A DNA stretch of 64,000 nucleotides. Origin: Alphaproteobacteria bacterium (GTDB taxonomy: Bacteria; Pseudomonadota; Alphaproteobacteria; CAAHEQ01; UBA3637). Under the pieces are notes generated by a model. That model made no database searches and was not told the origin of the DNA. It worked only from the letters and a program-made list of their open reading frames with translations. Position 1 is the first letter of the stretch, and every line of letters starts with the position of its first letter. The stretch is from contig JAFTSJ010000037.1 in assembly GCA_017467335.1 (NCBI GenBank), positions 1,078 through 65,077 on the forward strand. The letters run 5' to 3'. The position numbers and the translations under genes are program-made. Shown in pieces: positions 30,991 to 48,405 of the stretch.

Positions 30991-31701
30991 ATGTCTGAAG
31001 TATTTTTTAACGGGGTTGCCGGTCGTCTGGAAGGACGTTTTCACAAATCAGAAAATCCACGTGCTCCACAAATATTGATATTACATCCTCAACCGTTACA
31101 AGGCGGGACGATGAATAATCGTGTGACATATGCGATGTTTCAGGCTTTTGTTAATATGGGCTTTTCCGTTTTAAGATTTAACTATCGTGGCGTTGGTAAT
31201 TCACAAGGGGAACTTGATGGTTCGGGTGTGGGTGAATTAGCTGATGCCATTATTGCGTTGGATTGGTTGCAAAATTTAGATTCGGAAGCAAATTGTTGTT
31301 GGATTGCCGGTTATTCTTTTGGGGCATGGGTGGCTGCACAATTATTGATGAGACGTCCGGAAATTAAAGGATTTGTTTTTGTTTCTCCGCCGACTGATAT
31401 GTATCCGTTTGATTTTTTAACACCTTGTCCTGCTTCGGGATTGATTATACAAGGGGGGGCTGATACAATTGTATCCGAATCATCAGTTGCCATGTTAGCA
31501 GAACAATTATCCGGACACAAATATCTGCGTGTTGAATACAAAGTCTTGCCAGAGGCTGATCATATTTATTCGCGTCATTTAAAAGATGTTCAGGATTTGA
31601 TTACCCAGATTGTTCCGGAGTTAAAAGGTCGCCCGAGAAAGGTTGTTAAAAAAGTTAAAAAAGCAACTGTTTCAACGGTTATATCCAATGAAGACTATTG
31701 A
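30991..31701 (+). CDS. alpha/beta-hydrolase fold protein
   Basis: GYSFGAW nucleophile elbow (G-x-S-x-G) with downstream Asp/His (EADHIY). I place the start at ATG 30991 after AAGGGAAAAG; the listed 30832 start overlaps the tRNA. Confidence 0.7.
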   Translation: MSEVFFNGVAGRLEGRFHKSENPRAPQILILHPQPLQGGTMNNRVTYAMFQAFVNMGFSVLRFNYRGVGNSQGELDGSGVGELADAIIALDWLQNLDSEANCCWIAGYSFGAWVAAQLLMRRPEIKGFVFVSPPTDMYPFDFLTPCPASGLIIQGGADTIVSESSVAMLAEQLSGHKYLRVEYKVLPEADHIYSRHLKDVQDLITQIVPELKGRPRKVVKKVKKATVSTVISNEDY

Positions 31702-32584
31702 TTATATTGATGTGTTAGATGCTTTTAAAGCCTTTGACATACATACAAAACGTTATACGGAAAAAAATAAAGAATGGCTCAGTTGGAAATATTTTCACAC
31801 ATTAGATGTTGTGAAGACGGGGTTTGAGATTATTCAAAAAGAAAAGATATTGGCAGAAATGTCGGAAGAATCGCATAAACGCATGGAACGTTCTTTGCTG
31901 TTCCACGATATTGCCCGTTCAAAACAGATGATGCCAAACGGATGTATGATACCTCATTTTGTCCATGGGGCAGAAGGTATGCAAATGCTTTTAGAAAAAG
32001 GGGAACAAGATATATCCGTTTTGTCATCGGTGTTGGTTCATGATCAACTTACGATGAATTTTTTGGAAGAACAAGAACATATTCTGAAACAAGACATTGT
32101 TTTTCAAAAGTTACCTGAATTAGTTCAAAAAAGTGTTTTAACAATAAATCAATCGTACCAATCTTTGTCTGATAAAGAAAAATTATTTGTTCGTCAAACA
32201 TGTTTTTTAGTAAAAGATGCAGATACATTATCAAATATTTTGAATTACCAACAATTATTAAAAATTGAAAAAAATACGGATATTTTTCATATAACACCGG
32301 CCGTTTGGAAGGCGGTATCTGAACGTCAGTATGTTCCATATAAAAATGTTGCGACTTTTTTAGATAAAATATTGGTTTATATGGCGTGGACTTGGCATTT
32401 TTATTATGAAGCCACGATTCGCATTTTATGGCAATCAGATATATTAAATCATATGAAAGAATATGTTTTGTTTGAAATGAAACACAACGGTTATACAAAT
32501 CGTGTGGTAGAAATTGATGTATTGTTAAAAGAGTTAATTGACAATATACGCCAATTTCATGAAGTAAAGGTGAAACATCATTGA
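31688..32584 (+). CDS. HD-domain protein (putative metal-dependent phosphohydrolase)
   Basis: H..(x)..HD arrangement (FHTLDV ... LLFHDIARS). The start is uncertain: 31643 or 31688. Confidence 0.5.
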   Translation: MKTIDYIDVLDAFKAFDIHTKRYTEKNKEWLSWKYFHTLDVVKTGFEIIQKEKILAEMSEESHKRMERSLLFHDIARSKQMMPNGCMIPHFVHGAEGMQMLLEKGEQDISVLSSVLVHDQLTMNFLEEQEHILKQDIVFQKLPELVQKSVLTINQSYQSLSDKEKLFVRQTCFLVKDADTLSNILNYQQLLKIEKNTDIFHITPAVWKAVSERQYVPYKNVATFLDKILVYMAWTWHFYYEATIRILWQSDILNHMKEYVLFEMKHNGYTNRVVEIDVLLKELIDNIRQFHEVKVKHH

Positions 32585-32724: not shown

Positions 32725-33603
32725 ATGACTGATACAATACAAAAAGAACCTAAAAAAAAGAAATCTCCTGCCCAAAGATGGGTTAAAAGAATTTGGAATA
32801 TGATACCCAGTATGAAATCGCTGATAAAAGGGGCTGTATTTGTTACGAAAAAGTTTTTAGTCCGGAAATGGGAAAATGTGCAAAAAGATATTGCTGATGT
32901 GATTGATATCTTGAAACGAACCAAACGGACATTAGGAGCATTTTCTCCACATCAGATTAAGACGTCACCGGCTAAGGCGATTGATTGCCCATTGAATGAA
33001 TGTCCGATTATTATTAAAATTGAAACCTTAGGTGATAAAGGTCGCTGCATGCACGGTGCGGCGGCGTATAAAGGCATTATTGTTGATAGTGACGGCGAAG
33101 GACACAACACGACCGATGATGGTCGGATGGAAGAACCGGAAGATACAAACGGTCAATATTTTGTTATATATCCCAGTCGGTTGGGTATTGATGAAGAAAA
33201 ATTATTGCAGGCAATGAAACAAGAAGCTGCAAAAACAGGAGATTATGATTTTTATACGAATAACTGTATTGATCATGTCATCAGACCGTTGCAGGCAGCC
33301 GGTGTTCAAATTGATTTAGGAGAAGTATCAACGCCCAAAGAACTGTGTCAATGGTGTGACAATATTTGTTGTACGCAAAAAGCCGGTTATTTGTTGAATG
33401 AGGAAGAATATCAATCCTTTTTAAACCGTATTGAAGAACAAAATAAAAATGATATGGAACAATTGTATTTGATTTCTTCATTATACAATATCATAACTCG
33501 GCATAAGCCTAAACAAAGACCGATTATTCAAAAAGCAAATGAAACGGCAAAATCTTCCTATCTGTTTGAAAGAGGTCGTATTGAACAGATGTGTTACGGA
33601 TAG
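32725..33603 (+). CDS. hypothetical protein with an LRAT/H-Rev107-like (NlpC/P60-superfamily, permuted papain-fold) catalytic signature
   Basis: A His upstream (CMHGAAAYKGIIVDSDGEGHN) followed ~70 aa later by NNCIDHV, reminiscent of the NCEHF active-site Cys motif of LRAT-like acyltransferases/phospholipases. The SD GAAGGAGGAGG is very strong. Confidence 0.55.
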   Translation: MTDTIQKEPKKKKSPAQRWVKRIWNMIPSMKSLIKGAVFVTKKFLVRKWENVQKDIADVIDILKRTKRTLGAFSPHQIKTSPAKAIDCPLNECPIIIKIETLGDKGRCMHGAAAYKGIIVDSDGEGHNTTDDGRMEEPEDTNGQYFVIYPSRLGIDEEKLLQAMKQEAAKTGDYDFYTNNCIDHVIRPLQAAGVQIDLGEVSTPKELCQWCDNICCTQKAGYLLNEEEYQSFLNRIEEQNKNDMEQLYLISSLYNIITRHKPKQRPIIQKANETAKSSYLFERGRIEQMCYG

Positions 33604-35063: not shown

Positions 35064-35861
35064 ATGAAAAAGAAATATTTTTATAGCATTGTTTTTATAT
35101 TTTTCGGCATGTTATTGTTTGACATACCTGTTTTGTCGTATGAATCTAAATTAAGTAAAGAAGATTTAGCTGAAATACAAAAAATAAAGAATCATAATAA
35201 GCAACAGTTAGAACAGCAAATGACACTGGAACGGTATCAAAAAGAACATCCGAATTCTATGACCCCGCAACCGGAAGAATATTGGGATTTGGCTTGGCAT
35301 GCTCGTTTGGCGGATTATGGTGATGAAGAAAGTCAATTTGTTATTGCTCGTGCTTATGATAAGGGGCAACAAGTTGATCAAAATCCGAAAAAAGCCATTG
35401 CTTTTTATGAAAAAGCAGCTGATCAAGGACATATTGATGCTTGTATGCGTTTAGGGGAAATATATTCTGAAAATAAGTGGGTTAAAAAAGACGAAGAAAA
35501 ATCGTTATATTGGTATGCCAAAGCCGCAAAAAACGGTTATGTTCAGGCTCAATTGAAAGTGTCTGAAATCTGTAAAGAAAAGGGAGATTATGTATTGGCT
35601 GTTTTGTATTTGGAAACCGGATTAAAACAATTATTTCCTCAGGCTGATAAATTAGAAACATATGCTCCTGATTTGGTTGAATTAAAACGGTTGGCTCAAA
35701 TGCAGAAAAAAATGAATGACAGAGGTGTTTATCGATTCGTGTTGCATGAAAGCGGTCTTTCAAGTTTTCAATCCAGACAATTGCAACAAAAGAATATCAA
35801 TCGTTCACCAATGCAACCGTTTAAGCCTCAAAAACGTGTTTTAAAAGAGGTTCATCAATGA
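35064..35861 (+). CDS. Sel1-repeat (TPR-like) protein with N-terminal signal peptide
   Basis: Signal-like N-terminus MKKKYFYSIVFIFFGMLLF, then Sel1 units (AYDKGQQVDQNPKKAIAFYEKAADQGHIDACMRLGEIY; YWYAKAAKNGYVQAQLKV). Confidence 0.75.
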   Translation: MKKKYFYSIVFIFFGMLLFDIPVLSYESKLSKEDLAEIQKIKNHNKQQLEQQMTLERYQKEHPNSMTPQPEEYWDLAWHARLADYGDEESQFVIARAYDKGQQVDQNPKKAIAFYEKAADQGHIDACMRLGEIYSENKWVKKDEEKSLYWYAKAAKNGYVQAQLKVSEICKEKGDYVLAVLYLETGLKQLFPQADKLETYAPDLVELKRLAQMQKKMNDRGVYRFVLHESGLSSFQSRQLQQKNINRSPMQPFKPQKRVLKEVHQ

Positions 35862-36796: not shown

Positions 36797-38164
36797 ATGA
36801 AAATCATTATTGCCGGAGCCGGACAGATAGGTGTTGGATTAGCAAAATATTTGCGTGCTGAAAACAATGAAATCGTATTGGTTGACAGTGATTGCGAACG
36901 ATTAGGAAATTTAAGTGAACAATTGGATATTCAAACAATTGAAGGTTCGGCTGCCTATCCGGCGGTTTTGGAAAAAGCAGGAGCACGTCAGGCTGATGTT
37001 TTTTTAGCGGTTACCGGTTCTGATGAAACTAATATTGTGTCGTGTGGTGTTGCCCGTTCTATTTTTAATATTCCAACACGTATTGCACGCATATTAGCTA
37101 GCGAATATTTATCACAAAAATATAAATCTTTTTTACAATCACAAAGTATAGATGTTGTCTTGTCACCGGAGATGGAAACAGCACGTCGTGTTTTAGAAAA
37201 TTTATCTGTTTCTCATTCAGTTGACTTTTTTAATTTATCGGAAGGCATTGCCAAATTGATTGGTTTAAGATGTCGTAAAACATCACCATTAGTTGGAAAA
37301 ACAGTCAATGAATTAAGAAAATTAACAGAAGGCTTTAACATTCAATTTGTTGCCATTAAGCGTCGTCAACGTTTAAAACCGTTAGAAGATACCGTTTTAC
37401 GATTTGGGGATGATATTTATTTTGTTGTTGATTCAAAGCATGTCAGACCGATTTTGGATATTTTTGCATATGAAACGATTTCACCGAAATACATGGTTAT
37501 TTTTGGAGGAGGAAAAGTTGGTTATCAATTGGCTCGTTTATTAGAACATACATCATATGCACAAGATGTAACAGTTGTTGAAATGAAAGAAGAACGAGCT
37601 CGCTATTTAGCAGAAAGATTGGAAAATACGCTGGTTATACATGGAGATGGTTTGGATGATAAATTGGTTGATGATTTAAAGTTATCTAATTATCAAGTTG
37701 CAATCGCAACAACTCAATCGGATGAAAGTAATATTTTATTATCATTATTGGCCAAAAGAAACGGTGTTGAAAGAACGTGTGCTTTGATACATAATCCTCT
37801 TTATGATGATTTAGTAACGGGTTTAGGTGTTGATGTAACGATTGAACCCAATTCTGTTCTTGTATCAGCTATTTTGCAACATATGCGTAAAGGACGTGTA
37901 CGTAGCGATTATTTTATTCAATCCGGTATCGGGGAGATTTTGGAAGTTGAAGCATTGGAAACTTCTAAAATCACGCATGCTCCGTTAGGCAAGATTAAAA
38001 TACCGGCAGGTGTTGTGATAGCCGGTATTGTTCGAAATGGAGAATTTATTATTCCTCAATCGGATTTTATTGTTCAAAAACAAGATTTAGTTATTTTATT
38101 TGTTGAACGGGGAAAAGTGCGTGAAGCGGAAAAATTGTTTACGGTCGGATTTAATTTCTTTTGA
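36797..38164 (+). CDS. trkA: Trk system potassium uptake protein TrkA (tandem RCK/NAD-binding domains)
   Basis: MKIIIAGAGQIGVGLAKYL and a second Rossmann site MVIFGGGKVGYQLARLL; 455 aa. Confidence 0.85.
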   Translation: MKIIIAGAGQIGVGLAKYLRAENNEIVLVDSDCERLGNLSEQLDIQTIEGSAAYPAVLEKAGARQADVFLAVTGSDETNIVSCGVARSIFNIPTRIARILASEYLSQKYKSFLQSQSIDVVLSPEMETARRVLENLSVSHSVDFFNLSEGIAKLIGLRCRKTSPLVGKTVNELRKLTEGFNIQFVAIKRRQRLKPLEDTVLRFGDDIYFVVDSKHVRPILDIFAYETISPKYMVIFGGGKVGYQLARLLEHTSYAQDVTVVEMKEERARYLAERLENTLVIHGDGLDDKLVDDLKLSNYQVAIATTQSDESNILLSLLAKRNGVERTCALIHNPLYDDLVTGLGVDVTIEPNSVLVSAILQHMRKGRVRSDYFIQSGIGEILEVEALETSKITHAPLGKIKIPAGVVIAGIVRNGEFIIPQSDFIVQKQDLVILFVERGKVREAEKLFTVGFNFF

Positions 38165-41100
38165 TGATGAATAATAAAATTTCACTTTGTGGGATACCAA
38201 ACGGGTATCAAGGTATTGTTTTAAAACGATTGTTGCAAACATCAACGATACATTGTCATATTGTGGCCAATGACAGACAATTATCCTTTTTGCAAGAAAC
38301 AATTTCGCTATTGAATCCGGATATTCAAATTTTGGTTTTTCCGAATTGGGATACGGTACCATATGACAGAGTTTCTCCGAAGTCAGAAATTGTTTCGGAA
38401 CGAATTAACACTTTGATAATGTTGAAAGAATTATCAAAATTGAATACATTTGAACAGCCGGTTCTTATTTTAACAACAACGGCTGCATTGCTTCAAAAAG
38501 TACCACCGATGTCTTTTTTTGACAGCGGCGTATTACATTTAACATCCGGTCAATCGATTGGCTTTGATTTTCTTAAACATTATTTACAACAAAACAATTA
38601 TGTTTCAAGTAATGCTGTTGTTTCTGTGGGCGAATACACCGTTCGGGGCGGACTTATAGATATATTTCCGACCGGGGCTTTACATCCGATTCGAATAGAT
38701 TTTTTTGGAGATGAAATTGATTCAATCAAATATTTCGATGAAAGTACGCAACGTACGTTGAAATCGATTGATAAGATAACATTAAAGCCTGTTTCGGAAT
38801 ATCGTTTAACAACAGATAGTATTTCGCTTTTTCGAACAAAGTATCGAACGTTATTTGATGATGTACAAAACGATTATCTGTACGAAGCAATCAGTAATGG
38901 AATCATGGCACAGGGAATCGAACATTTTTTACCGCTTTTTTTTGAAGAAATGGCAGATTTGTTTGATTATTTACCTAAATGTACATTTTCTTTTGATTTT
39001 CAGGCTCTTGAATCATTGTCATCTCGTATAGAGCAAATTACCGAGTATTATGAAGCTCGTCGAATTGCTTTAAAAAATACAGATGGTCTGACACAAGAAA
39101 AATATTGTCCGATATCGCCTGATTTGTTTTTTTTGACGCAAGACGAAGTATTAACAAAAATTGAACAATATCAATATTATGTTTTTTCACCATATGTTGA
39201 ACCGGATAAAAAAGATGAAACAGGTCGAATAGGGCAAACATTTGTTGATGTTCGTGTTCAGGAAAATAAAGATGTCTTTGATGCTGTTATTCAACAAATT
39301 TCAATTGAAAAGCGTTCTGTGATATTAACAGCTTCAACATTTGGAGCAGTGCAACGGCTTATCGGGGTTTTTCGAGAACACGGTTTGAAATTGTATGAAG
39401 CCCATACATGGCAGGAAAGCATACAAAATGCTCCGGCTATTTTGGTTGCTCCCTTTGTCAATGGTTTTTCTGATAATTCTTTTGTTTTAATAACCGAAAC
39501 AGATATGTTTGGAGAACGTGTTGTACAGACACAGCGTAAACCGAAAAATAAAAATTTTATTACAGATGTTAATTCGCTTAACATAGATGATTTGGTTGTT
39601 CATCAAATACACGGTGTCGGCAAATATATTGGTTTGTTTCCTATTAAAACGGGACAAATTACACATGATTGCATCGGGTTGGTTTATGCCGGCGGTGATA
39701 AATTATTTGTACCGGTTGAAAATGCTGATGTTTTGTCAAAATACGGTTCGCAAAACGTGATGTTGGATACATTAGGGTCATCATCTTTTTTACAACGGAA
39801 AGAACGAGTTAAAAAAGATTTGTTTGTAATGGCTGAACGGTTGATTAACATTGCTTCTCAAAGAGCCCTTAATCGTACGGAACCGATATTGATACCGCAT
39901 GGTACATATCAAGAGTTTTGTATGCGTTTTCCTTATGTTGAAACGGAAGACCAATTACGAACAATGCAAGAAGTTGAAACAGATTTATCATTGAATCGCC
40001 CGATGGATAGATTGGTTTGCGGAGATGTAGGTTTTGGAAAAACGGAAATAGCATTACGGAGTGCTTTTTTAGTTGCTATGGCTGGTTTACAGGTTGCTAT
40101 TGTGGCTCCGACAACTTTATTGGCCATGCAACACGCTCAAACGTTTATAGAACGATTTAAAGGTTTTCCCATCCGTGTCGGAACACTTTCTAGATTGGTA
40201 TCATCAACGAAAAGTAAACAAATCAAAAAAGAGTTAGCCAATGGAACGTTAGATATTGTTGTCGGTACACATGCTTTGTTAGCGAAAACAATTTCTTTTA
40301 AACGATTGGGTTTGGTTATTGTTGATGAAGAACAACATTTTGGCGTTGCTCATAAAGAACGTTTAAAAGAATTACAAAAAGGTGTTCATGTGTTAACATT
40401 GACAGCTACGCCAATACCCAGAACGTTGCAGTTATCCTTGGCCGGTGTTCGGGAGTTATCTATTATTGCAACGCCACCGGTTGACAGGTTGGCTGTTAAA
40501 ACATTTGTAACTCCTTTTGATGGGGTCATTATTAAAGAAGCTATTTTAAGAGAACATTTTCGAGGCGGACAAATATTTTTTGTATGTCCTCGTATTTCTG
40601 ATATGGATGAAGTTCGTCAGATTTTGAAAGAATTAGTACCGGATATCCGTGTTGTTGAAGCTCATGGGCAAATGGGGGCATCTTCATTGGAAAAAATTAT
40701 GCAGGATTTTGCTCAAAAAAAATACGATATTTTATTGGCGACAAGTATAATTGAATCCGGATTGGATATGCCTTCTGTTAATACGATTATTATTTATCGA
40801 GCCGATATGTTTGGTTTATCGGCATTATATCAAATGCGTGGTCGTGTCGGACGAGGCAAATTAAGGGCGTATGCCTATTTAACAACTCCACCGTATGCTC
40901 GTTTAAATACGGCTGCCCAAAAACGCTTGAATGTAATGCAAAGTTTAGACAGTTTAGGAGCCGGATTTACGTTAGCAAGCCATGATTTAGATATTCGGGG
41001 AGCCGGCAATTTATTGGGACAGGAACAATCTGGTCATATTCGGGAAGTAGGGGTTGCTTTGTATCAAAAAATGCTTTCAGATGCGATACAGACTCTTAAA

Positions 41101-41574
41101 AAGAATAATTCAAAAGAAGTTGTTGAGGTGTTTTCTCCTCAAATTTCTGTCGGATTATCTGTTTTTATTCCGGAAACATATATAACCGATTTAGATACCC
41201 GAATGGATTTATATCAACGCATTGGTCATATTGAAACACTAGAAGAAATCGATTTGTTTAAAGATGAGTTGGTTGACAGATTTGGTTTATATCCCAAAGA
41301 AGTAGATAATTTATTTTTAACAATACGATTAAAAATACTATGCAAAAAGGCTCATATAGACCGTTTGGATATTGGTGAAAAAGGAGCAACAATTTCTTTT
41401 CATCAAAATATTTTTCCTAATCCTACCGGCTTGATAGATTATATTACTTCTCAAATGGGAACGATACGTATTCGATCGGATCAAAAGTTAGTTGTTTTAC
41501 GACCGTTTTCCACAATTGAAAATCGATTAAAAAGCATAGAAGATATTATTATGCGGATTGCAAATCTGGTTTAA
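38164..41574 (+). CDS. mfd: transcription-repair coupling factor Mfd
   Basis: UvrB-homology N-terminus, RNAP-interacting domain, and SF2 helicase motifs (GDVGFGKTE, DEEQHFG, QMRGRVGR); ~1136 aa. ATG 38164 overlaps the trkA stop (TGATG). Confidence 0.9.
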   Translation: MMNNKISLCGIPNGYQGIVLKRLLQTSTIHCHIVANDRQLSFLQETISLLNPDIQILVFPNWDTVPYDRVSPKSEIVSERINTLIMLKELSKLNTFEQPVLILTTTAALLQKVPPMSFFDSGVLHLTSGQSIGFDFLKHYLQQNNYVSSNAVVSVGEYTVRGGLIDIFPTGALHPIRIDFFGDEIDSIKYFDESTQRTLKSIDKITLKPVSEYRLTTDSISLFRTKYRTLFDDVQNDYLYEAISNGIMAQGIEHFLPLFFEEMADLFDYLPKCTFSFDFQALESLSSRIEQITEYYEARRIALKNTDGLTQEKYCPISPDLFFLTQDEVLTKIEQYQYYVFSPYVEPDKKDETGRIGQTFVDVRVQENKDVFDAVIQQISIEKRSVILTASTFGAVQRLIGVFREHGLKLYEAHTWQESIQNAPAILVAPFVNGFSDNSFVLITETDMFGERVVQTQRKPKNKNFITDVNSLNIDDLVVHQIHGVGKYIGLFPIKTGQITHDCIGLVYAGGDKLFVPVENADVLSKYGSQNVMLDTLGSSSFLQRKERVKKDLFVMAERLINIASQRALNRTEPILIPHGTYQEFCMRFPYVETEDQLRTMQEVETDLSLNRPMDRLVCGDVGFGKTEIALRSAFLVAMAGLQVAIVAPTTLLAMQHAQTFIERFKGFPIRVGTLSRLVSSTKSKQIKKELANGTLDIVVGTHALLAKTISFKRLGLVIVDEEQHFGVAHKERLKELQKGVHVLTLTATPIPRTLQLSLAGVRELSIIATPPVDRLAVKTFVTPFDGVIIKEAILREHFRGGQIFFVCPRISDMDEVRQILKELVPDIRVVEAHGQMGASSLEKIMQDFAQKKYDILLATSIIESGLDMPSVNTIIIYRADMFGLSALYQMRGRVGRGKLRAYAYLTTPPYARLNTAAQKRLNVMQSLDSLGAGFTLASHDLDIRGAGNLLGQEQSGHIREVGVALYQKMLSDAIQTLKKNNSKEVVEVFSPQISVGLSVFIPETYITDLDTRMDLYQRIGHIETLEEIDLFKDELVDRFGLYPKEVDNLFLTIRLKILCKKAHIDRLDIGEKGATISFHQNIFPNPTGLIDYITSQMGTIRIRSDQKLVVLRPFSTIENRLKSIEDIIMRIANLV

Positions 41575-41584
41575 GTAAAATAAC

Positions 41585-41613
41585 TTGACAATAGACTGTA
41601 AATATGATATTTT
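41585..41613 (+). promoter_or_regulatory. possible promoter for the paralog array: -35 TTGACA (41585-41590), 17-bp spacer, weak -10 TATTTT
   Basis: cTTGACAatagactgtaaatatgaTATTTT. SD AAAAGGA lies before ATG 41657. Confidence 0.3.
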
Positions 41614-41656
41614 CCCTTATATGTCAAAATTTTCAGATAAAACAGCAAAAGGATAA

Positions 41657-42595
41657 ATGAAGATGAGTGAAGATAAAAAAACGGGTGAATTTTTATATTT
41701 TGAAGAAAAAGACAATGCAATTTATTCAAAAGAAACCGGTCAAAAAGTGGTTGATATCAATGATGAAACGCATATTTATGAATATCAGGATAACGGTTTG
41801 CTGAAAGTCAGCACGGCAGATACGTGTGTATTATACGATTATCGGGGAAATTTACTGCCACATTTTGAAAACGGAGGTAAATTTATTCATTTTGGCCGAT
41901 TTAATAGTTCATTTTATACTGTGAAAACATCTGAAGGAGAACAATCATATCTTATACCATGTATCAGACGAGGCTCTTTTGTAATTGAGAGTGATGAGAA
42001 AGCAGGTCAATTTGTTGTTTCAACGGTAAAAGGTAAGGAAATAGGAAGCGGTGTTGATTTTAATTTTTATCAACCAAATCCTTTATGTTTATATATTGGT
42101 ATTAAAAATAAAGATGATATGTGGACTGTTTATGATGAAAAAGGTATTCCTGAACCGAAAATGACAAATGTTCGTTGGGTGGGATGCCATAGTTCCACAG
42201 ATTCTTTTGACATTCGTAAAAATTTGTATTCTGATTATGAAACTGTATTAACAAGACGACAAAATCGCAATCGTCTGGCTACTTACTCAATATGTGCCGC
42301 TTTGTTTTGTTTAGGTGCTTTATGGGTAAGTCGGTCGTGTCAGAAAGAAGAACAGCAATTGAATGAATTTGCACAACAAGACGCGACATATTTAGGTGCA
42401 TCAGATGGTGTTTTGTTGTTTGATACGGATGGTGATAAGGAAACGGCTGAATTAGGTGCTGATTTACACCGAAAATCTCGGACTAAAATTATGGGTAAAA
42501 TGTACAAGAAGGAAGGTCAATGTCGCAAAATTACTCATTGGTGCGATATAACCGGATTGTCCATTCGTTCTTTTGATAAAGTAAATGAAAATTAA
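41657..42595 (+). CDS. paralog 1 of a four-member bitopic membrane-protein family (312 aa): cytoplasmic beta-rich repeat domain, single TM, ~80-aa Cys-containing C-terminal ectodomain
   Basis: No signal peptide; positive residues (RRQNRNR) precede the hydrophobic helix LATYSICAALFCLGALWV. The conserved C-terminal block is QQDATYLGASDGVLLFDTDGD...EGQCRKITHWCDITGLS. N-domain motifs (YDYRGNLLPHFENG; WTVYDEKGIPEPKMTNV) loosely resemble WG-type repeats. Confidence 0.75.
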   Translation: MKMSEDKKTGEFLYFEEKDNAIYSKETGQKVVDINDETHIYEYQDNGLLKVSTADTCVLYDYRGNLLPHFENGGKFIHFGRFNSSFYTVKTSEGEQSYLIPCIRRGSFVIESDEKAGQFVVSTVKGKEIGSGVDFNFYQPNPLCLYIGIKNKDDMWTVYDEKGIPEPKMTNVRWVGCHSSTDSFDIRKNLYSDYETVLTRRQNRNRLATYSICAALFCLGALWVSRSCQKEEQQLNEFAQQDATYLGASDGVLLFDTDGDKETAELGADLHRKSRTKIMGKMYKKEGQCRKITHWCDITGLSIRSFDKVNEN

Positions 42596-42611
42596 ATATC
42601 AGTGAAAAGGT

Positions 42612-43547
42612 TTGGTAATGCCCAAGAAACAACATAATGACAAGATGTTAAATTTTCAGGAAGTTAATGGTGCTATTTATTCAAAAGCAACGGGCAACAA
42701 GATTATTGACATGGCTGAAGTCAAATTTATTTGTGAAAACAGGTGGTTGGGTGTCTTGGTTGTTAGTAAGCCTGATGCGAATATCTTATATGATTATCGG
42801 GGAAATTTATTGCCTCATTTTGAAAACGGAGAAACTTTTAAATATTTTTGCGGGCGTGATAATCGGTATTATACTGTTAAAAAGGGTGAAATGGAAGAAA
42901 CATATCATATTCCATGTATTAAACAAGGTTGTTTGATTGTTGAGTATGATGAAAATAAAAAACAATATACACTATCGACAATTAAAGGAAAACAAATTGC
43001 TGTTGGAAAGGATATAACACCATATAAAATAAATGAACGGTTGTATTTATGTGTTAAAAATAATGACGGACGTGTAACAGTTTATGATGAAAAAGGTGTT
43101 CCAGAACCACAAATGACAAACGTTGATGAAGTTCGTTCGTGTGGTTGGGATTTTTTAGAAATTCGTTCAAGCAAACAGAATTCTGATTATACGCAGGTTT
43201 TAACAAGACGGCAGATGAGGAACAAAAAATTGACACGAACACTTTTAACAACTTTGGGGGCAATAGCCGTTGTTTTGGGCGGCAAGTGTTGTCAATCGTA
43301 CATACAGGAGTTGGATGAGATAAAACAACAAGATGCAACATATTTAGGTGTGTCAGATGGTGTTTTATTGTTCGATACGGATGGTGATACGGATACAGCG
43401 GAAATGTGTGTTGCTTTGGCTGATACAAATAAATCGGAAATTATCAGAAGTATGTATAAGCAGGAAGGAAAATGTCGAAAAGTTGCTCAATGGTGTGAAA
43501 GAACAGGATTATCAGTCTGTGTTTTTGATCGTGTGAATGAAAATTAA
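42612..43547 (+). CDS. paralog 2 (311 aa)
   Basis: Collinear with paralog 1: YDYRGNLLPHFENG, IPCIKQG, VTVYDEKGVPEPQMTNV, TM TLLTTLGAIAVVLGG, and C-terminal QQDATYLGVSDGVLLFDTDGD...EGKCRKVAQWCERTGLS. Confidence 0.75.
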   Translation: MVMPKKQHNDKMLNFQEVNGAIYSKATGNKIIDMAEVKFICENRWLGVLVVSKPDANILYDYRGNLLPHFENGETFKYFCGRDNRYYTVKKGEMEETYHIPCIKQGCLIVEYDENKKQYTLSTIKGKQIAVGKDITPYKINERLYLCVKNNDGRVTVYDEKGVPEPQMTNVDEVRSCGWDFLEIRSSKQNSDYTQVLTRRQMRNKKLTRTLLTTLGAIAVVLGGKCCQSYIQELDEIKQQDATYLGVSDGVLLFDTDGDTDTAEMCVALADTNKSEIIRSMYKQEGKCRKVAQWCERTGLSVCVFDRVNEN

Positions 43548-43567
43548 ATATTGAAAAGGATTTATAA

Positions 43568-44503
43568 ATGACAATAATACCTAATGAAGATGAATTTTTT
43601 TATTTTAAACAGATTGGTGATGTAATTGTTTCAAAAGCAACAGGGAGAATTATCACAAAATTAGATGAAAATACATTTGTTGAAGAAAATGCAGAAAACG
43701 GCTTATTAGTCGTTAAAAATACAGACAAAAGTGTTGTGTGCGATTATCGGGGTGAGTTATTGTCCCATTTTGAAAATGGTGCTTCATTTAAGGAATTTAG
43801 TCGTGAACGGGTTGAAACACGCCATTATATTGTAAAGACAGAAGAAGGCGAGAAAAGATGTCATATTCCATGTATCAGACGAGATGATTTTGTTATTGAA
43901 TATGATGAAAAATCACAACAATATGCATTTTCAACAACAAATGGAAAGCAATTTGCCATTGGTAAAGATTTTGAATTACATAAAATAGATGAAGGTTTAT
44001 TTATTGCTATTCAGGATGAAAAAGAACGATGGACAGTTTATAATGCAAAAGGCATTGTTGAACCTCAATTAAAAGACGTTGTCTGTGTACGTGTTTATGA
44101 AGAAAATAAGTTCCATGTTCGACGAACACCTGATTCTTGTATGGAACCTGCTTTGACAAAACAACAAACACGTCGCAGAAATGTGAAACGGGGAACTCTG
44201 ATAGGGTTGCTTTCGTTGGCAGTCGTTGTGGGTGGCAAGGGTTGTCAGGCATATATGGATGAATTGCGTGCAATTCGTCAGCAAGAAGCAACATACTTAG
44301 GTGTATCCGATAGTGTTTTATTATTTGATACGGACGGTAATCACGCAACGATTGAATTAGGTGTGTCTTTGACAGATAAACAAGATAAAGTTCGTGTTTT
44401 GGGAAGCCTGTTTCAGCAGGAAGGACAATGTCGCAAAGTGGCTCAATGGTGTGATATGACAGGATTGGCGACATCTTATTTTGAAAAGGTAAATTCGAAC
44501 TAA
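43568..44503 (+). CDS. paralog 3 (311 aa)
   Basis: Collinear with paralogs 1 and 2: CDYRGELLSHFENG, IPCIRRD, WTVYNAKGIVEPQLKDV, TM LIGLLSLAVVVGG, and C-terminal QQEATYLGVSDSVLLFDTDGN...EGQCRKVAQWCDMTGLA. Confidence 0.75.
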   Translation: MTIIPNEDEFFYFKQIGDVIVSKATGRIITKLDENTFVEENAENGLLVVKNTDKSVVCDYRGELLSHFENGASFKEFSRERVETRHYIVKTEEGEKRCHIPCIRRDDFVIEYDEKSQQYAFSTTNGKQFAIGKDFELHKIDEGLFIAIQDEKERWTVYNAKGIVEPQLKDVVCVRVYEENKFHVRRTPDSCMEPALTKQQTRRRNVKRGTLIGLLSLAVVVGGKGCQAYMDELRAIRQQEATYLGVSDSVLLFDTDGNHATIELGVSLTDKQDKVRVLGSLFQQEGQCRKVAQWCDMTGLATSYFEKVNSN

Positions 44504-44519
44504 AAAGATAGGAATTAAC

Positions 44520-45377
44520 ATGTTTGAAACAGATAAAAATTTTGAAATTATTGGTACGGAAGTCTATCATAAATTAACAAATAAACTGATTGTTGATTTG
44601 GGAAAAAACGGGGCTGCGTTAGAAACACCCATGTGTTTGTTGGTACGTACATCAGATCAATCCAAGAATTATGATATGGCGTTTGATTGCGATGGTAACT
44701 TACTTAAAGGAACAGGTGAAAACGATTGTGTCGGTGTTTTCCCGTGTGATAAAAAATATCAGATTCTTCATCACAGCGGACGGGTTACAAATTATTTTTT
44801 TCCACTTATTAAAACATCGTTTTTTCATATCAGACATGATGGTCAAAAATATGTTTTTTCAACAAAAACAGACCGTGAATTTGCATCGGGAACAAATTAT
44901 CACATATACACAATTGATTCTCGTGAATACTTAGCTGTTTGTCAGGAAAATACACAACAAGATGAAAAGGGCGTTAATTTAAGTGATTGCAAACGTTGGA
45001 CATTGTTTAGTGCTGATGGCGTAGTTGTTCCTGAAGTATCAAATGCTCGTTCAATTCGGTTGGCTGATAATCATTTTTTTGTTGAAAATGAAAACCATGA
45101 TGTGAAAGAAGTCCCCGTTCTTACTTACGAAAAAGAATCTTTTGGTGCAAAGCGGTGGGGATGTTTGTTTGCCGGTGTTGTGACATGTGTTTCATGGATT
45201 GCAATTGCTCAACTGTCACGGTGTTTTGTTGAGGATGTATCGGTTAAGCAAGAAATTCCAACATGTTCGGGTTTAAGCATTGATAATGAAAATGAAATGA
45301 AATCAATATTACCTCCTCGAAAAATTACTTCCGGTAATGTTATTTCGCAACCTGACAAGCAACACGTGAAACAGTAG
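44520..45377 (+). CDS. paralog 4, divergent (285 aa): related N-domain and TM but an unrelated C-terminal tail
   Basis: Shares the overall layout (beta-rich N-domain, TM WGCLFAGVVTCVSWIAIAQL) but lacks the DATYLG...CRK..WC block. Confidence 0.65.
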   Translation: MFETDKNFEIIGTEVYHKLTNKLIVDLGKNGAALETPMCLLVRTSDQSKNYDMAFDCDGNLLKGTGENDCVGVFPCDKKYQILHHSGRVTNYFFPLIKTSFFHIRHDGQKYVFSTKTDREFASGTNYHIYTIDSREYLAVCQENTQQDEKGVNLSDCKRWTLFSADGVVVPEVSNARSIRLADNHFFVENENHDVKEVPVLTYEKESFGAKRWGCLFAGVVTCVSWIAIAQLSRCFVEDVSVKQEIPTCSGLSIDNENEMKSILPPRKITSGNVISQPDKQHVKQ

Positions 45378-45388
45378 TAATTATTTTT

Positions 45389-46063
45389 TTATTCAATAGA
45401 TTGAATGGTTTTACCGTTTTTGCGTAACCAGATTTGAGCATCGGCTTGTTTGACGTTGAGTTGAGAAACCACAGCCCAAAATTTTGGGCTGTGATTCATT
45501 TCAATTAAATGGGCTACTTCATGAGCAATAACGTAATCAATCACATCAAGTGGAGCGAAAACCAATTTCCAACATAAATTGATATTTTTCAAAGAAGAAC
45601 AGCTACCCCAGCGTGAAGATGAATTTTTAAGTGTTATTTTTTGAATGGGCGTATCGAGTTGAACGGCCATTTGTAATGCTTTTGCTTGTGCATATTGGTA
45701 AAATTGTTCTTTTGCAAATGTTGTAATACGCCTATGCAGAAACGTGCTTTCCCCACCAACGACAATGTGATTATCTTGTATTATTGTTCCTTTTTTATGT
45801 AACGGATTGTGTTCGATAATATAATTTTGACCTAAAATGGAGATGGTATCATTATTTTTAAATCGAATTGTTTTAAAAGTATCAATCTGTTTTGCTATCC
45901 AGTTCAAATGTTGTTTAGCAAAGGATACGGCTTGTTGTTCTGAACAAAACAACGGTGCGGATAAAATGATGTTTTTGTTTTTATCAAAACGCAAACGAAT
46001 GCTTTTAAGGTTTTCTTTTTGAATAAAAAAAACAAAATAAGAACCGATTTTAATTTTTTTCAT
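45389..46063 (-). CDS. YgjP-like metal-dependent hydrolase (DUF45 / M48-like, HExxH)
   Basis: C-terminal VIAHEVAHLIEMNHSPKFW zinc-binding motif is characteristic of the YgjP/UTP pyrophosphatase family; 224 aa. Confidence 0.7.
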   Translation of the reverse strand: MKKIKIGSYFVFFIQKENLKSIRLRFDKNKNIILSAPLFCSEQQAVSFAKQHLNWIAKQIDTFKTIRFKNNDTISILGQNYIIEHNPLHKKGTIIQDNHIVVGGESTFLHRRITTFAKEQFYQYAQAKALQMAVQLDTPIQKITLKNSSSRWGSCSSLKNINLCWKLVFAPLDVIDYVIAHEVAHLIEMNHSPKFWAVVSQLNVKQADAQIWLRKNGKTIQSIE

Positions 46064-46587: not shown

Positions 46588-48401
46588 ATGACATCAGAAA
46601 ATCAAACAGAAAATTTATTTACGATTGGTTCTTCTCGTTATGTGGAAGTTGAATCAGCGGTTGCATTGAACGAAAAACAAATGGAAACGTTACGCAAACG
46701 TTTGGAAAAAGTGTTAAAAACAGAACGATTTGTTTTACAAGTCAAAGTGAATCCGGCATTGTTAGGTGGTTTGTCATTGAAAGTTGATTCGTTTTTAGTT
46801 GATGCTTCCGTGAAAGGTCAATTACAAGCGTTTGAAAAAGAAATTGCTCAAAAAGTTTCATCGGCAGTTGATGTAACAAAAATTGCTGATATTTTTTCTG
46901 ATAGTGTTAAATCTTTTCAAGAAAAAACAATTGTGTCTGAGGTCGGGGTTGTTTTATCTGTTTCAGACGGTGTTGCTAAGGTTGAAGGGTTAAAATCAAT
47001 TGCTTCCGGTGAACGGGTTGTTTTTGAATCCGGTGCTCAAGGGATGGCTTTAAACTTAAATCCGGATGGCGTAGATGTTGTTATTTTTAATGGTGCCGTT
47101 AATATTCGTGAACATGAAAAGGTCTCTCGTACGGGAATGATGAACACTGTTCCGGTCGGTAAAGAATTGTTGGGTCGTGTTGTTAATCCTTTGGGTGAGC
47201 CGTTAGATGGAAAAGACGGTTTTGATGATTTACCACGGAATCCGGTTAATGCTCCTGCTCCGGGGATTATTGCTCGGTCACCGGTTAATGTTCCCATTCA
47301 AACGGGGATTAAAGGAATTGATGCCCTTGTTCCGATTGGTCGGGGACAACGTGAATTGATTATCGGAGATAGACAAACCGGTAAAACAGCCATTATTTTA
47401 GATACAATTTTAAGTCAAAAAGAGATAAATGCCCGTGTATCTGATAAAGATAAATTATTTTGTGTTTATGTTGCCATCGGACAGAAACAATCAACCGTTC
47501 GGGATATTATGCGTGTGTTAGAAGAACGAGGAGCAATGGATTATACGGTTATTGTGTCCGCTACGGCTTCTGATAGTGCTGCTATGCAATATTTGGCTCC
47601 ATATGCCGGTTGTACTATCGGTGAATATTTCCGTGATAATGGTATGAATGCCATTGTTTTCTATGATGATTTGTCAAAGCATGCTGTAGCATACCGTGAA
47701 ATGTCATTGTTGTTGAAACGTCCGGCCGGTCGTGAAGCATATCCGGGTGACGTTTTCTACTTACACTCTAAATTGTTAGAACGAGCTGCCCAGTTAAGTG
47801 CCGAAAATGGGGGTGGGTCCTTGACGGCTTTACCGGTTATTGAAACGCAAGAAGGGGATGTGTCTGCCTATATTCCGACTAATGTTATTTCTATTACGGA
47901 CGGACAGATTTTCTTAGAAACAACTTTGTTCCATCAGGGCGTTCGTCCGGCTATCAACGTTGGGTTATCGGTTAGTCGTGTCGGGTCTGCTGCTCAAAGT
48001 AAAGCCATGAAAAAAGTTGCCGGTTCATTGAAATTGGATTTGGCTCAATATCGTGAAGTTATGTCATTTTCGCAATTTGCTTCTGATTTGGATCCGGCAA
48101 CACAGGCATTGTTAAATCGAGGGGCCCGTTTAACAGAAATTATGAAGCAAAAGCAATATCGTCCATATTCAATGGCACAAGAAGTTGTTTCGATTTGTGC
48201 CGGTGTTAGTGGTTTACTTGATGAAATAGCTATTGATAAAGTGTCTGTTTTTGAACAAAAACTGCAAGATAAAGTTGCTGCGGATTATCCGGAAATACTT
48301 GAAAGTATTACTACAACTCGTGAATTAAAAGATGATATAAAAGAAAAATTGCACTCAGTCGTCCGATTGGTTGTACAAGAAATGACGGGAAATACAGATA
48401 A

Positions 48402-48405
<4 letters not shown>
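46588..48405 (+). CDS. atpA: F1 ATP synthase alpha subunit with an N-terminal in-frame fusion to the C-terminal half of subunit delta (OSCP)
   Basis: The first ~90 aa ([26 protein letters not shown]...[29 protein letters not shown]) match only the C-terminal domain of AtpH. The frame then runs without a stop into the canonical alpha subunit ([22 protein letters not shown]..., P-loop GDRQTGKT); 605 aa total. Confidence 0.8.

What the first reader, a model, noticed from the sequence alone, without database searches (positions are those of the whole stretch)
41585..45377. Tandem array of four paralogous single-pass membrane proteins of an apparently undescribed family
Four same-strand genes separated by only 16-20 bp encode collinear proteins of 285-312 aa. 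Paralogs 1-3 are ~45-55% identical to each other by eye. Each has no signal peptide and a ~215-aa N-domain with repeated beta-hairpin-like motifs (YDYRGNLLPHFENG; IPCIRRG; WTVYDEKGIPEPxMTNV), possibly distantly WG-repeat-like. A positively charged stretch precedes a single TM helix (N-in predicted). The ~80-aa C-terminal ectodomain has an invariant block DATYLGxSDGVLLFDTDGD...EGQCRKxxxWCDxTGL with two conserved Cys, consistent with a periplasmic disulfide. The intergenic junctions (aaattaaatat..gaaaagg) are themselves conserved, indicating unit duplication. The array sits between mfd and a ygjP-like gene, outside any obvious operon context. Tandemly amplified, diverging bitopic proteins suggest a sensor/receptor or envelope family under diversifying selection, or a polymorphic immunity-like array.
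Basis: partly seen in the sequence, partly recalled or inferred. Interest (0 to 1): 0.8.

Follow-up and report, generated by a model that had tools for sequence, protein, structure and literature searches.

The report
Tandem array, undescribed bitopic membrane-protein family
Four neighbouring genes in an uncultured gut alphaproteobacterium encode old, diverged copies of a rare, undescribed single-pass membrane protein; the gene block changes copy number by recombination and was recently swapped between two related lineages, but its function is unknown.

Summary
Four same-strand ORFs (312, 311, 311 and 285 aa; spacers 16, 20 and 16 bp) are collinear paralogs, 42-48% identical among copies 1-3 and 21-24% to copy 4.

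Pfam, NCBIfam, PHROGs, PADLOC and PDB sequence searches give no significant match. An exhaustive HMMER search of 1.84 billion representative proteins finds only 38 relatives, on low-GC metagenome contigs. Some of these are also in tandem.

The family architecture is:
- one or two copies of a ~95-aa all-beta module, which are internally duplicated (hhalign 95.6%);
- a single transmembrane helix, with charge bias indicating N-in/C-out;
- a ~70-aa C-domain carrying ATYLG...FDTDG[DN]xxTAE...W.

AlphaFold2 reaches pLDDT 93.8. PDB fold searches return only partial propeller-blade resemblance.

- Copy 4 lacks the C-block.
- The Cys pair is not conserved across the family.
- No WG-repeat match was found.
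- Pairwise dN/dS of 0.35-0.48 at dS of about 1 gives no sign of diversifying selection.

New findings: three array haplotypes exist ([1,2,3,4], [1/2 chimera,3,4] and [1,3,4']), all explained by unequal recombination at shared sequences. A ~3.1-kb block is 97-100% identical between lineages whose flanking genes differ by dS of about 0.9, which indicates recent exchange.

Function is unresolved. An exchangeable accessory envelope cassette, possibly protective, is my best inference.

The parts
41585..41613 (+). Promoter-like site TTGACA-17 nt-(TG)TATTTT, 44 nt upstream of copy 1. It is a candidate promoter for a four-gene operon.
   Evidence: 10 of 12 matches with an extended -10 TG. The number of promoter-like sites in the region is not above chance (22 found vs 25.3 expected), so this is weak evidence. 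The operon reading is inferred from the 16-20 bp spacers.
41657..42595 (+). Copy 1 (312 aa). It contains beta-module 1 (about residues 11-100), beta-module 2 (about residues 101-199), a helix at residues 200-239 that includes the membrane segment (about residues 207-225), and a C-domain (residues 240-312).
   Evidence: (AF2 pLDDT 93.8).
42128..42145 (+). GTTTATGATGAAAAAGGT (encodes VYDEKG), shared exactly with copy 2 at 43080-43097. It is the crossover site of the copy 1/2 chimeric gene found in three other samples.
42275..42331 (+). Membrane-spanning segment of copy 1 (about residues 207-225). It is preceded by RRQNRNR and followed by a juxtamembrane Cys (SRSC).
42374..42592 (+). C-terminal (inferred periplasmic) domain of copy 1, with the family motif ATYLG..LFDTDGDKETAE..G..R.I..W.
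   Evidence: invariant T244 Y245 L246 F255 D256 D258 T263 E265 W295 in 16 members that carry the C-domain.
42584..42599 (+). Shared gene-end/junction repeat AATGAAAATTAAATAT (copy 1 end), paired with 43536-43551.
   Evidence: The copy 1|3 junction of the three-gene haplotype (L004, L018) is joined exactly here.
42612..43547 (+). Copy 2 (311 aa from TTG; more likely 309 aa from the ATG at 42618). It is absent from the L004-type haplotype and fused with copy 1 in the L012-type haplotype.
43536..43551 (+). Second copy of the junction repeat AATGAAAATTAAATAT (copy 2 end).
43568..44503 (+). Copy 3 (311 aa).
44520..45377 (+). Copy 4 (285 aa). It is a divergent member with both beta-modules, the membrane segment and a short tail that lacks the conserved C-domain motif. 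Other family members share this truncated architecture.
41650..44695 (.). Block that is 97-100% identical to a lineage whose flanking genes are only about 82-85% identical. I read it as a recently exchanged recombination tract running from the start of copy 1 to about codon 60 of copy 4; copy 2 is an exact one-unit indel within it.
   Evidence: The haplotype was seen in four independent samples.

Best explanation
What it is (shown). This is an operon-like array of four ancient paralogs of a previously undescribed, very narrowly distributed family of bitopic membrane proteins. The family occurs in low-GC, uncultured Alphaproteobacteria-type genomes from gut-type metagenomes.

A family member consists of:
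- one or two copies of a ~95-aa all-beta module at the N-terminus, with no signal peptide;
- a basic stretch;
- a single transmembrane helix, usually ending in a juxtamembrane Cys;
- in most members, a ~70-aa alpha/beta C-domain with the motif ATYLG...FDTDG[DN]xxTAE...G.t..I..W.

Topology (inferred from the charge bias and the size of the N-domain). The beta-modules are cytoplasmic and the C-domain is periplasmic.

How the locus behaves (shown).
- The copies diverged long ago (dS of about 1) under moderate purifying selection.
- The array gains and loses units by unequal homologous recombination at short sequences shared between units.
- A ~3.1-kb block of it has recently moved by recombination between two lineages whose neighbouring housekeeping genes differ by dS of about 0.9.

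How it most likely works (inferred, low confidence). The proteins are accessory trans-membrane adaptors. The conserved periplasmic domain contacts a common envelope component or cation. The more variable cytoplasmic beta-modules supply specificity, possibly as homo- or hetero-oligomers of co-expressed paralogs. The cassette gives a niche-dependent, probably protective, advantage that favours its spread between co-resident relatives.
For: Genes and paralogy.

No described family: Pfam on the four copies and on all 32 aligned relatives, NCBIfam, PADLOC, PHROGs and a PDB profile search.

Rarity:
- 3 hits among 5.8 billion clusters by word-indexed search.
- 38 hits (26 at E<=1e-10) among 1.84 billion representatives by exhaustive HMMER.
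- 1 locus among 185,579 species genomes.
- 1 locus in JGI metagenomes.
- None in viral contigs.

Architecture:
- Alignment A3.
- AF2 with 32 sequences gives mean pLDDT 93.8 and pTM 0.75: about 19 strands in residues 15-197, a helix at 200-239 and a beta-beta-beta-alpha-beta-alpha-beta C-domain.
- Internal duplication of the beta-module: hhalign probability 95.6%, E=1e-8.
- Short forms (about 200-230 aa) match only module 2 plus the membrane segment plus the C-domain.

Topology:
- One hydrophobic segment in all 32 members.
- K+R 142 before vs 77 after the segment; D+E 44 before vs 76 after.

Age and selection:
- Paralog dS 1.0-1.3, dN/dS 0.35-0.48.
- The vertically inherited part of copy 4 has dS 0.97 and dN/dS 0.35, against 0.03-0.17 for the flanking genes.

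Array dynamics:
- [1/2 chimera,3,4] was seen in three independent samples.
- [1,3,4'] was seen in four samples.
- The breakpoints lie at exactly shared sequences.

Inter-lineage exchange:
- Copies 1 and 3 have dS 0.04, against 0.83-1.0 for trkA, mfd, ygjP and atpHA.
- Identity drops sharply from 100% to 66% at about 44696.

Tandem arrays in other lineages: L005 (at least 3 members), L021 (2) and L024 (2).

No conserved partner gene in six different genomic contexts.
Against: - Function is not demonstrated by any result here. No expression data exist.
- Topology is predicted only.
- The hydrophobic segment of copies 2 and 3 is short and only moderately hydrophobic (KD about 1.4 over 19 residues, about 1.75-1.8 over 17).
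- The 'protective accessory' inference rests only on population-genetic behaviour. No toxin, secretion-system, integrase or phage gene is nearby, and no defence model matches.
- GC content is like the surroundings. In this genus the array sits at a fixed chromosomal site, so it also looks like an ordinary lineage-specific core-ish locus.
- Members without the C-domain (copy 4, P0020/21/27/28/29/36) show that the periplasmic domain is dispensable for whatever those members do.
- Metagenomic assemblies could in principle create chimeric contigs. I consider this unlikely because the haplotypes recur in independent samples.
Confidence: 0.55

Rival explanations
1. Orphan immunity array. Each paralog neutralises a different variant of an envelope- or membrane-acting toxin delivered by competitors (T6SS, CDI or bacteriocin-type). 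The array is kept and exchanged between co-resident species because it protects against antagonism, as described for acquired interbacterial defence (AID) clusters and orphan immunity genes of gut Bacteroidales.
For: - Tandem, same-strand, tightly spaced, strongly diverged paralogs.
- Copy-number polymorphism within a species.
- A near-identical block shared across lineages with diverged flanks.
- Elevated dN/dS relative to neighbours.
- Gut-type metagenome origin of the contigs.
- The concept of exchanged immunity arrays in gut bacteria is described in the abstracts of 10.1101/471110 and PMC12247911.
Against: - No match to any Pfam immunity family in 32 members at E<=10.
- No cognate toxin, T6SS/CDI gene, integrase or mobile-element gene in the 64-kb window parts examined or in the related loci.
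- The most variable part is the inferred cytoplasmic domain, while the inferred periplasmic domain is the most conserved. That is awkward for immunity to periplasm-acting toxins.
- Many relatives are single-copy.
Confidence: 0.2
2. Lineage-specific envelope housekeeping or signalling proteins. These would be bitopic adaptors or sensors comparable in layout to anti-sigma/FecR-type regulators, RodZ, GspL or PrgH/YscD-type proteins, coupling a periplasmic cue or structure to a cytoplasmic partner. Under this reading the tandem copies are simple subfunctionalised duplicates.
For: - N-in/C-out layout with a folded cytoplasmic domain and a small conserved periplasmic domain.
- Purifying selection on all copies over dS of about 1.
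- Native GC content and a fixed site between mfd and ygjP in two lineages.
- No mobile-element signature.
Against: - No sigma factor, regulator, secretion or divisome gene is consistently adjacent.
- No Pfam match to anti-sigma, FecR, GspL or FHA domains.
- Loss or fusion of whole copies is tolerated within a species.
- Recent inter-lineage replacement of the block is unusual for housekeeping genes.
Confidence: 0.15
3. Host- or protist-interaction proteins. The organism carries large ankyrin- and Sel1-repeat proteins typical of host-associated bacteria. The family members could be exported, or could act at the bacterial surface or in a host membrane, with paralog diversity reflecting host targets.
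For: - A 2213-aa ankyrin-repeat protein and a Sel1 protein in the same window.
- Ankyrin genes next to a family member in L006.
- Low GC content and narrow, gut-restricted distribution.
Against: - No signal peptide.
- No secretion system in the loci seen.
- An inner-membrane anchor in a diderm would not reach the surface.
- There is no direct evidence of export.
Confidence: 0.07
4. Not functional genes. The ORFs would be decaying duplicates or mis-called ORFs, and the haplotypes and the high-identity block would be metagenome assembly artefacts.
For: - All data are from metagenome assemblies.
- There are no expression data.
- Promoter-like sites are not enriched.
Against: - All four ORFs are intact in every haplotype, each with a ribosome-binding site.
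- dN/dS is well below 1 across dS of about 1.
- 38 relatives conserve domain order and motifs.
- AF2 reaches pLDDT 93.8 from a 32-sequence alignment.
- The haplotypes recur in 3-4 independent samples each.
Confidence: 0.03

Closest known systems
Beta-propeller blade repeats (WD40, NHL, prolyl-oligopeptidase propellers, YqgU-like; two-blade lectins such as BambL)
   Different: - No Pfam propeller model reaches its cut-off.
- The unit of duplication is a ~95-aa module, and one module alone is a viable architecture.
- It is anchored by a C-proximal membrane helix.
- Whether the modules close into a propeller, alone or as oligomers, is unknown.
WG-repeat / KWG and MORN-variant (YwqK-type) beta-hairpin repeat proteins
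   Same: There are recurrent hairpin motifs of the type h-[YF]-[DN]-x-x-G-x-x-h-P (YDYRGNLLP, WTVYDEKGIPEP). This resemblance is by eye.
   Different: None of the 32 members matches WG_beta_rep or KWG at E<=10. A single member touches MORN_2 at E=0.011, below its cut-off.
Arrays of orphan immunity genes / acquired interbacterial defence clusters of gut Bacteroidales (10.1101/471110; PMC12247911)
   Same: - Tandem arrays of diverged genes in gut bacteria.
- Variable copy number.
- Transfer between species.
   Different: - No homology to known immunity families.
- No linked toxin or T6SS.
- No mobile-element backbone.
- The proteins are bitopic with a large inferred cytoplasmic domain.
- The analogy concerns locus behaviour, not demonstrated function.
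Bitopic N-in envelope adaptors (FecR/anti-sigma factors, RodZ, GspL, PrgH/YscD)
   Same: The layout is a folded cytoplasmic N-domain, one membrane helix and a small periplasmic domain.
   Different: - No sequence match to any of their domains.
- No sigma, secretion-system or cytoskeletal gene neighbours.
- The list of these proteins is from my own knowledge, not from a test.
Bacterial lipoprotein signal peptides (lipobox)
   Same: A basic stretch, a hydrophobic stretch of 15-20 residues and then a Cys, often after G/S/A, in 23 of 32 members.
   Different: - The segment lies 100-240 residues from the N-terminus.
- Position -2 is frequently K/R/H/Y, and position -1 is K or R in six members.
- This does not fit the classical [LVI][ASTVI][GAS]C lipobox (consensus quoted from my own knowledge).

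Membership tests
WG-repeat (Pfam WG_beta_rep / KWG) | Match to the family HMM at or above the gathering score | tested here: not met
   No hit for the four copies at E<=1, nor for any of 32 relatives at E<=10.
Beta-propeller (WD40 / NHL / YqgU / SBBP) | Closed toroid of at least 4 four-stranded blades, seen as a global structural match or a repeat HMM above cut-off | tested here: not met
   - Foldseek TM about 0.2 on both models.
- YqgU 15.8 bits against a cut-off of 27; SBBP matched by 1 of 32 members at E=0.015.
- Model coordinates could not be inspected, and oligomeric closure was not tested.
MORN_2 / YwqK-type immunity proteins | Match to PF07661 above its cut-off | tested here: not met
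   1 of 32 members at E=0.011, and none of the window copies.
Known anti-phage defence systems (PADLOC-DB) | Match to a defence-protein HMM | tested here: not met
   0 families at E<=1 for all four copies.
Phage protein families / prophage cargo | PHROG match, or presence on viral contigs | tested here: not met
   Only non-significant PHROG hits, E>=0.012. No relative found in IMG/VR with the pattern FD[TM]DG[DN]xxT[AVI].
Orphan immunity array / AID-type cluster | Tandem array of diverged genes with copy-number variation and inter-species transfer | tested here: met
Orphan immunity array / AID-type cluster | Homology of the array genes to immunity genes that are cognate to a known toxin, or a linked toxin or secretion locus | tested here: not met
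   No Pfam immunity family. No toxin or secretion gene in the window parts and loci examined. Whole genomes were not available to search.
Orphan immunity array / AID-type cluster | Protection against a toxin | not testable with these tools
   This needs an experiment.
Anti-sigma / FecR-type bitopic regulators | Cytoplasmic anti-sigma domain and an adjacent ECF sigma factor gene | tested here: not met
   No such Pfam domain. The neighbours are mfd, ygjP and atp genes.
Bacterial lipoproteins | N-terminal signal peptide ending in the lipobox [LVI][ASTVI][GAS]C | tested here: not met
   The hydrophobic segment is internal, starting at residues 100-242. The residues before the Cys are often K/R/H/Y.
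Bitopic N-in/C-out (type II) membrane protein (generic class) | Single hydrophobic segment, no signal peptide, positive-inside charge bias | tested here: met
   All 32 members have one segment. K+R is 142 before vs 77 after it. This is a prediction only; the experimental topology is not testable here.

The most novel reading that the evidence does not exclude
The family is a new kind of exchangeable envelope module. Co-expressed paralogs would assemble through their two-blade-like cytoplasmic beta-modules, and perhaps through the juxtamembrane Cys, into hetero-oligomeric propeller-like complexes tethered to a conserved periplasmic domain. Different paralog combinations would provide strain-specific protection (immunity- or defence-like), and this would drive sweeps of the cassette between co-resident gut alphaproteobacterial species.
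Probability: 0.12. Interest if true: 0.75.

Novelty: categorically new. Interest (0 to 1): 0.45.

Why it matters
At the level of protein family, this matches nothing curated or solved. AlphaFold2 nevertheless models it with high confidence, it has a clear modular architecture, and its locus shows unequal crossing-over and a recent inter-lineage replacement. That behaviour usually marks genes involved in conflict or niche adaptation.

If a protective or interaction role were shown, the family would add a new membrane-anchored module to the repertoire of gut bacterial competition or defence genes. It would also give a handle on the biology of an uncultured gut alphaproteobacterial group.

The novelty has limits. 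'New' here means no detectable relationship to described families, not a demonstrated new mechanism. Lineage-restricted families of unknown function are very common in metagenomes. Without functional data this remains a well-documented ORFan family.

Tried and rejected
1. WG-repeat, MORN or propeller membership was rejected on HMM and fold evidence.
2. A family-wide periplasmic disulfide was rejected. The EGQC..WC Cys pair is not conserved outside these paralogs and P0016. A different, juxtamembrane Cys is common (23 of 32 members).
3. The C-domain as a further copy of the N-module was rejected. hhalign probability is 8% against module 1 and 0.5% against module 2; only a 9-residue hairpin motif (lFDTDG vs lYDxxG) is alike.
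4. Recent amplification and diversifying selection were rejected at the whole-gene level: paralog dS is about 1 and dN/dS is 0.35-0.48. Comparisons with copy 4 are saturated.
5. Phage or defence-island origin: no PHROG or PADLOC hits, no viral contigs, and no integrase seen.
6. Association with YgjP: this gene is absent from the contexts of the other family members.
7. Classical lipoprotein processing was rejected on the position and composition of the segment.
8. Technical dead ends:
   - The afdb50 fold library was unavailable.
   - The word-indexed homolog search with the family profile added only four close relatives of P0029.

Full report
1. THE OBSERVATION

Four + strand ORFs lie at these coordinates:
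- 41657-42595 (312 aa)
- 42612-43547 (311 aa from TTG; public gene calls use the ATG at 42618, giving 309 aa)
- 43568-44503 (311 aa)
- 44520-45377 (285 aa)

The spacers are 16, 20 and 16 bp. Each start codon is preceded by an AAGG/AGGA-type ribosome-binding sequence. A promoter-like TTGACA-17-(TG)TATTTT sits at 41585-41613. Such sites are not enriched in the region (22 found vs 25.3 expected), so this is weak evidence.

The proteins are collinear. Identity to copy 1 is 48, 42 and 23%. The weakest pair still gives BLASTP E=2e-6.

- trkA and mfd lie upstream.
- A convergent YgjP-like gene (Pfam E=9e-44) lies downstream.
- A 100-aa ORF and the atp operon follow.

GC content of the array (30-40%) is like its surroundings.

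Two details need correcting. Copy 4 lacks the conserved C-terminal block. The junction repeat AATGAAAATTAAATAT is shared only by the ends of copies 1 and 2; it occurs exactly twice in the window, with 0.06 occurrences expected by chance.

2. IS THE FAMILY DESCRIBED?

No. These searches found nothing significant:
- Pfam: the best hit is YqgU at 15.8 bits against a cut-off of 27.
- NCBIfam.
- PADLOC.
- PHROGs.
- A PDB profile search.
- Pfam on all 32 aligned relatives at E<=10: no family is shared by more than two members.

NCBI names the one deposited copy 'hypothetical protein', from an 'Alphaproteobacteria bacterium' MAG.

3. HOW WIDE IS THE FAMILY?

- The word-indexed search of 5.8 billion clusters found three proteins, all from this genus-level group.
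- An exhaustive HMMER search of 1.84 billion representatives found 38 proteins, 26 of them at E<=1e-10.
- Pattern scans found one locus in 185,579 species genomes.
- Pattern scans found one locus in JGI metagenomes.
- Pattern scans found none in IMG/VR.

All recovered loci have 29-40% GC. The record labels (for example XIEF21, TONG22, ROVI19) suggest animal or ruminant gut metagenomes, in line with the ruminant catalogue paper PMC8199421 found. That provenance is my inference and was not checked.

4. ANATOMY

Architectures. The 32-sequence alignment shows two forms:
- Long forms (about 260-330 aa) have two beta-modules, a membrane segment and a C-domain.
- Short forms (about 200-230 aa) have only the second module, the membrane segment and the C-domain.
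- Several members, including copy 4, have the modules and the membrane segment but no C-domain motif.

Internal duplication. The two modules are homologous to each other (hhalign 95.6%, E=1e-8, 71 columns). The C-domain is not detectably related to them.

Conserved motifs:
- WT[LV]Y[DN]xxGxPxPxAxNV in the module.
- ATYLG...[LF]FDTDG[DN]xxT[AV]E...G.t..I..W in the C-domain.

Predicted structure. With four sequences AF2 already gave pLDDT of about 90 for residues 11-200. With 32 sequences the whole chain reaches pLDDT 93.8 and pTM 0.75. The model has:
- about 19 short strands in residues 15-197;
- a 40-residue helix at 200-239 that contains the membrane segment;
- a beta-beta-beta-alpha-beta-alpha-beta C-domain.

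- TM-scores are about 0.2.
- The short best-fitting hits are two-blade-sized pieces such as the BambL lectin and a BamB fragment.

No C-domain match appeared among the top hits. I could not inspect coordinates, and afdb50 was unavailable. 'No global match among solved structures' is therefore as far as this goes.

Topology. All 32 members have exactly one hydrophobic segment and none at the N-terminus. K+R is 142 in the 15 residues before the segment against 77 after it. D+E is 44 before against 76 after. A 100-240-residue folded N-domain without a signal peptide is very unlikely to be exported; that is established knowledge of Sec/YidC insertion and is my inference here. N-in/C-out is therefore the best prediction.

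Juxtamembrane Cys. A Cys sits at the outer end of the membrane segment in 23 of 32 members. Its position recalls a lipobox, but the segment is internal and the residues before the Cys are often K/R/H/Y. This feature is unexplained.

(a) The paralogs are old.
- Pairwise dS is 1.0-1.3.
- dN/dS is 0.35-0.48 among copies 1-3.
- The C-domain is the best conserved part (56-62% aa identity).
- The membrane segment and linker are the least conserved part.
- There is no whole-gene signal of positive selection.

(b) There are three array haplotypes.
- [1,2,3,4] occurs in the window and in identical contigs.
- [1/2 chimera,3,4] occurs in three independent samples of the same species, with flank dS of about 0.025.
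- [1,3,4'] occurs in four samples of a second lineage, including the GTDB species representative JAZTVX010000024.

The chimera's crossover lies in GTTTATGATGAAAAAGGT, which copies 1 and 2 share exactly. The 1|3 junction of the three-gene haplotype is joined exactly at the shared AATGAAAATTAAATAT. Both rearrangements are textbook products of unequal homologous recombination.

(c) A block has recently moved between lineages. Between the window and the second lineage:

| Gene | dS | aa identity |
|---|---|---|
| trkA, mfd, ygjP, atpHA | 0.83-1.0 | 77-96% |
| copies 1 and 3 | 0.04 | 95-97% |

In 100-nt windows, identity is 96-100% from about 41,700 to 44,695. It then falls to 57-74% inside copy 4.

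Copy 4 confirms the boundary:
- Codons 1-60 are 97% identical.
- Codons 61 to the end are 54% identical, with dS 0.97 and dN/dS 0.35.

So vertically inherited family genes diverge to about 54% identity over this distance. The 95-97% identity of copies 1 and 3 must reflect a recent recombinational transfer between the lineages. Recurrence in independent assemblies argues against an assembly chimera.

(d) Tandem copies recur elsewhere.
- L005 has at least three members on a 2.9-kb contig.
- L021 has a short plus a long member.
- L024 has a short plus a long member.
- L006, L010, L015 and L020 carry single copies, at unrelated sites.
- Two lineages place members next to the L-serine dehydratase gene.
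- No partner gene recurs across these contexts.

6. WHAT IT MOST LIKELY IS AND DOES

Shown:
- This is a real, conserved and very narrowly distributed family of single-pass membrane proteins with a modular beta / membrane helix / small alpha-beta layout.
- In the window it is present as an operon-like array of ancient paralogs.
- The array is remodelled by unequal crossing-over.
- Part of the array was recently exchanged between lineages.

Inferred:
- The beta-modules are cytoplasmic and the conserved C-domain is periplasmic.
- The four genes are co-transcribed.

Speculative but my preferred reading: these are accessory trans-membrane adaptors. Their conserved periplasmic domain would recognise a common envelope component; the acidic FDTDG[DN]..TAE loop could also bind a cation. 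Their variable cytoplasmic modules would confer specificity, perhaps as oligomers.

Several properties point to conflict or niche-adaptation genes, of which orphan immunity arrays of gut Bacteroidales are the closest behavioural analogue (10.1101/471110, PMC12247911):
- copy-number polymorphism;
- dN/dS elevated relative to neighbouring genes;
- varied insertion sites in different genomes;
- inter-lineage replacement of the block.

Against that reading:
- No toxin, secretion-system, integrase or phage gene is linked.
- No immunity or defence model matches.
- The more variable part is predicted to be cytoplasmic.

My confidence is 0.55 for the descriptive explanation taken as a whole. Within it, I would put about 0.3 on a protective function of any kind, which includes the 0.2 given to the specific immunity-array rival.

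7. VERDICT

'Undescribed family' and 'N-in bitopic' hold up. 'WG-repeat', 'conserved disulfide' and 'diversifying selection' do not.
- As a family it is new with respect to everything I could test.
- As biology it is an ORFan family with interesting population-genetic behaviour and no known function.
- Interest is moderate (0.45).

Noticed in passing
window 2336-8977 (+): A 2213-aa ORF with ankyrin repeats near both ends (Pfam Ank_2 E=6e-35). It is a giant ankyrin-repeat protein of the kind typical of host- or protist-associated bacteria. A Sel1-repeat protein lies at 35064-35861.
   Followed up: partly
window 46588-48405 (+): The ATP synthase alpha subunit is fused to an N-terminal OSCP/delta domain, giving 605 aa (Pfam OSCP plus ATP-synt_ab in the precomputed annotation of the identical gene in L001). 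The fusion is conserved in the second lineage.
   Followed up: no
window 45390-45489, including the hairpin at 45470-45493: A 100-nt island is 98% identical between the two lineages, while the surrounding ygjP and copy-4 sequence is 67-82% identical. It contains a 10-bp-stem GC-rich hairpin followed by a T-rich tail on the + strand, inside the 3' end of the convergent ygjP gene. It could be a shared terminator for the array or a second short recombination tract.
   Followed up: no
window 40696-40995 (inside mfd): This stretch is 92-97% identical to the second lineage, against 81-88% in neighbouring mfd segments. It could be a conserved helicase motif region or another short recombination tract.
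   Followed up: no
window 44007-44570 (-): A 187-aa antisense ORF lies inside copy 3 and is also present in L004 (9859-10422). It is most likely a by-product of the conserved sense gene. A 124-aa antisense ORF lies in copy 2 (43054-43428).
   Followed up: partly
Family-wide; in the window, residues 228 (copy 1), 226-227 (copy 2), 226 (copy 3) and 235 (copy 4): A Cys sits at the outer end of the membrane segment in 23 of 32 family members, often as G/S-C. The position is lipobox-like, but the segment is internal and the residue at -2 is often charged. Possible roles are an intermolecular disulfide or an unusual processing site.
   Followed up: partly
L020 4497-6645 and L021 3738-6984: In two other lineages, family members sit directly next to, and divergent from, the L-serine dehydratase gene. 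L020 has one copy and L021 has two. This suggests a second recurrent insertion site for the family.
   Followed up: partly
L006 8946-10409: Downstream of a single-copy short-form member lies a 487-aa protein with a prepilin-like N-terminus (MVEMLGVLAIIGVLSVAGIATYQY) and a Cys-rich central region. It has no Pfam annotation on record.
   Followed up: no
window 9002-10489, 10683-12071, 31643-32584, 32725-33603: Four further sizeable ORFs (495, 462, 313 and 292 aa) have no Pfam match at E<=1e-5. None matches the family HMM.
   Followed up: partly
window 38161-41574 vs 36797-38164: The longest mfd ORF starts at a TTG that overlaps the trkA stop codon. Public gene calls use starts 2-3 codons downstream (1135-1136 aa), so the start coordinate is uncertain.
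   Followed up: no
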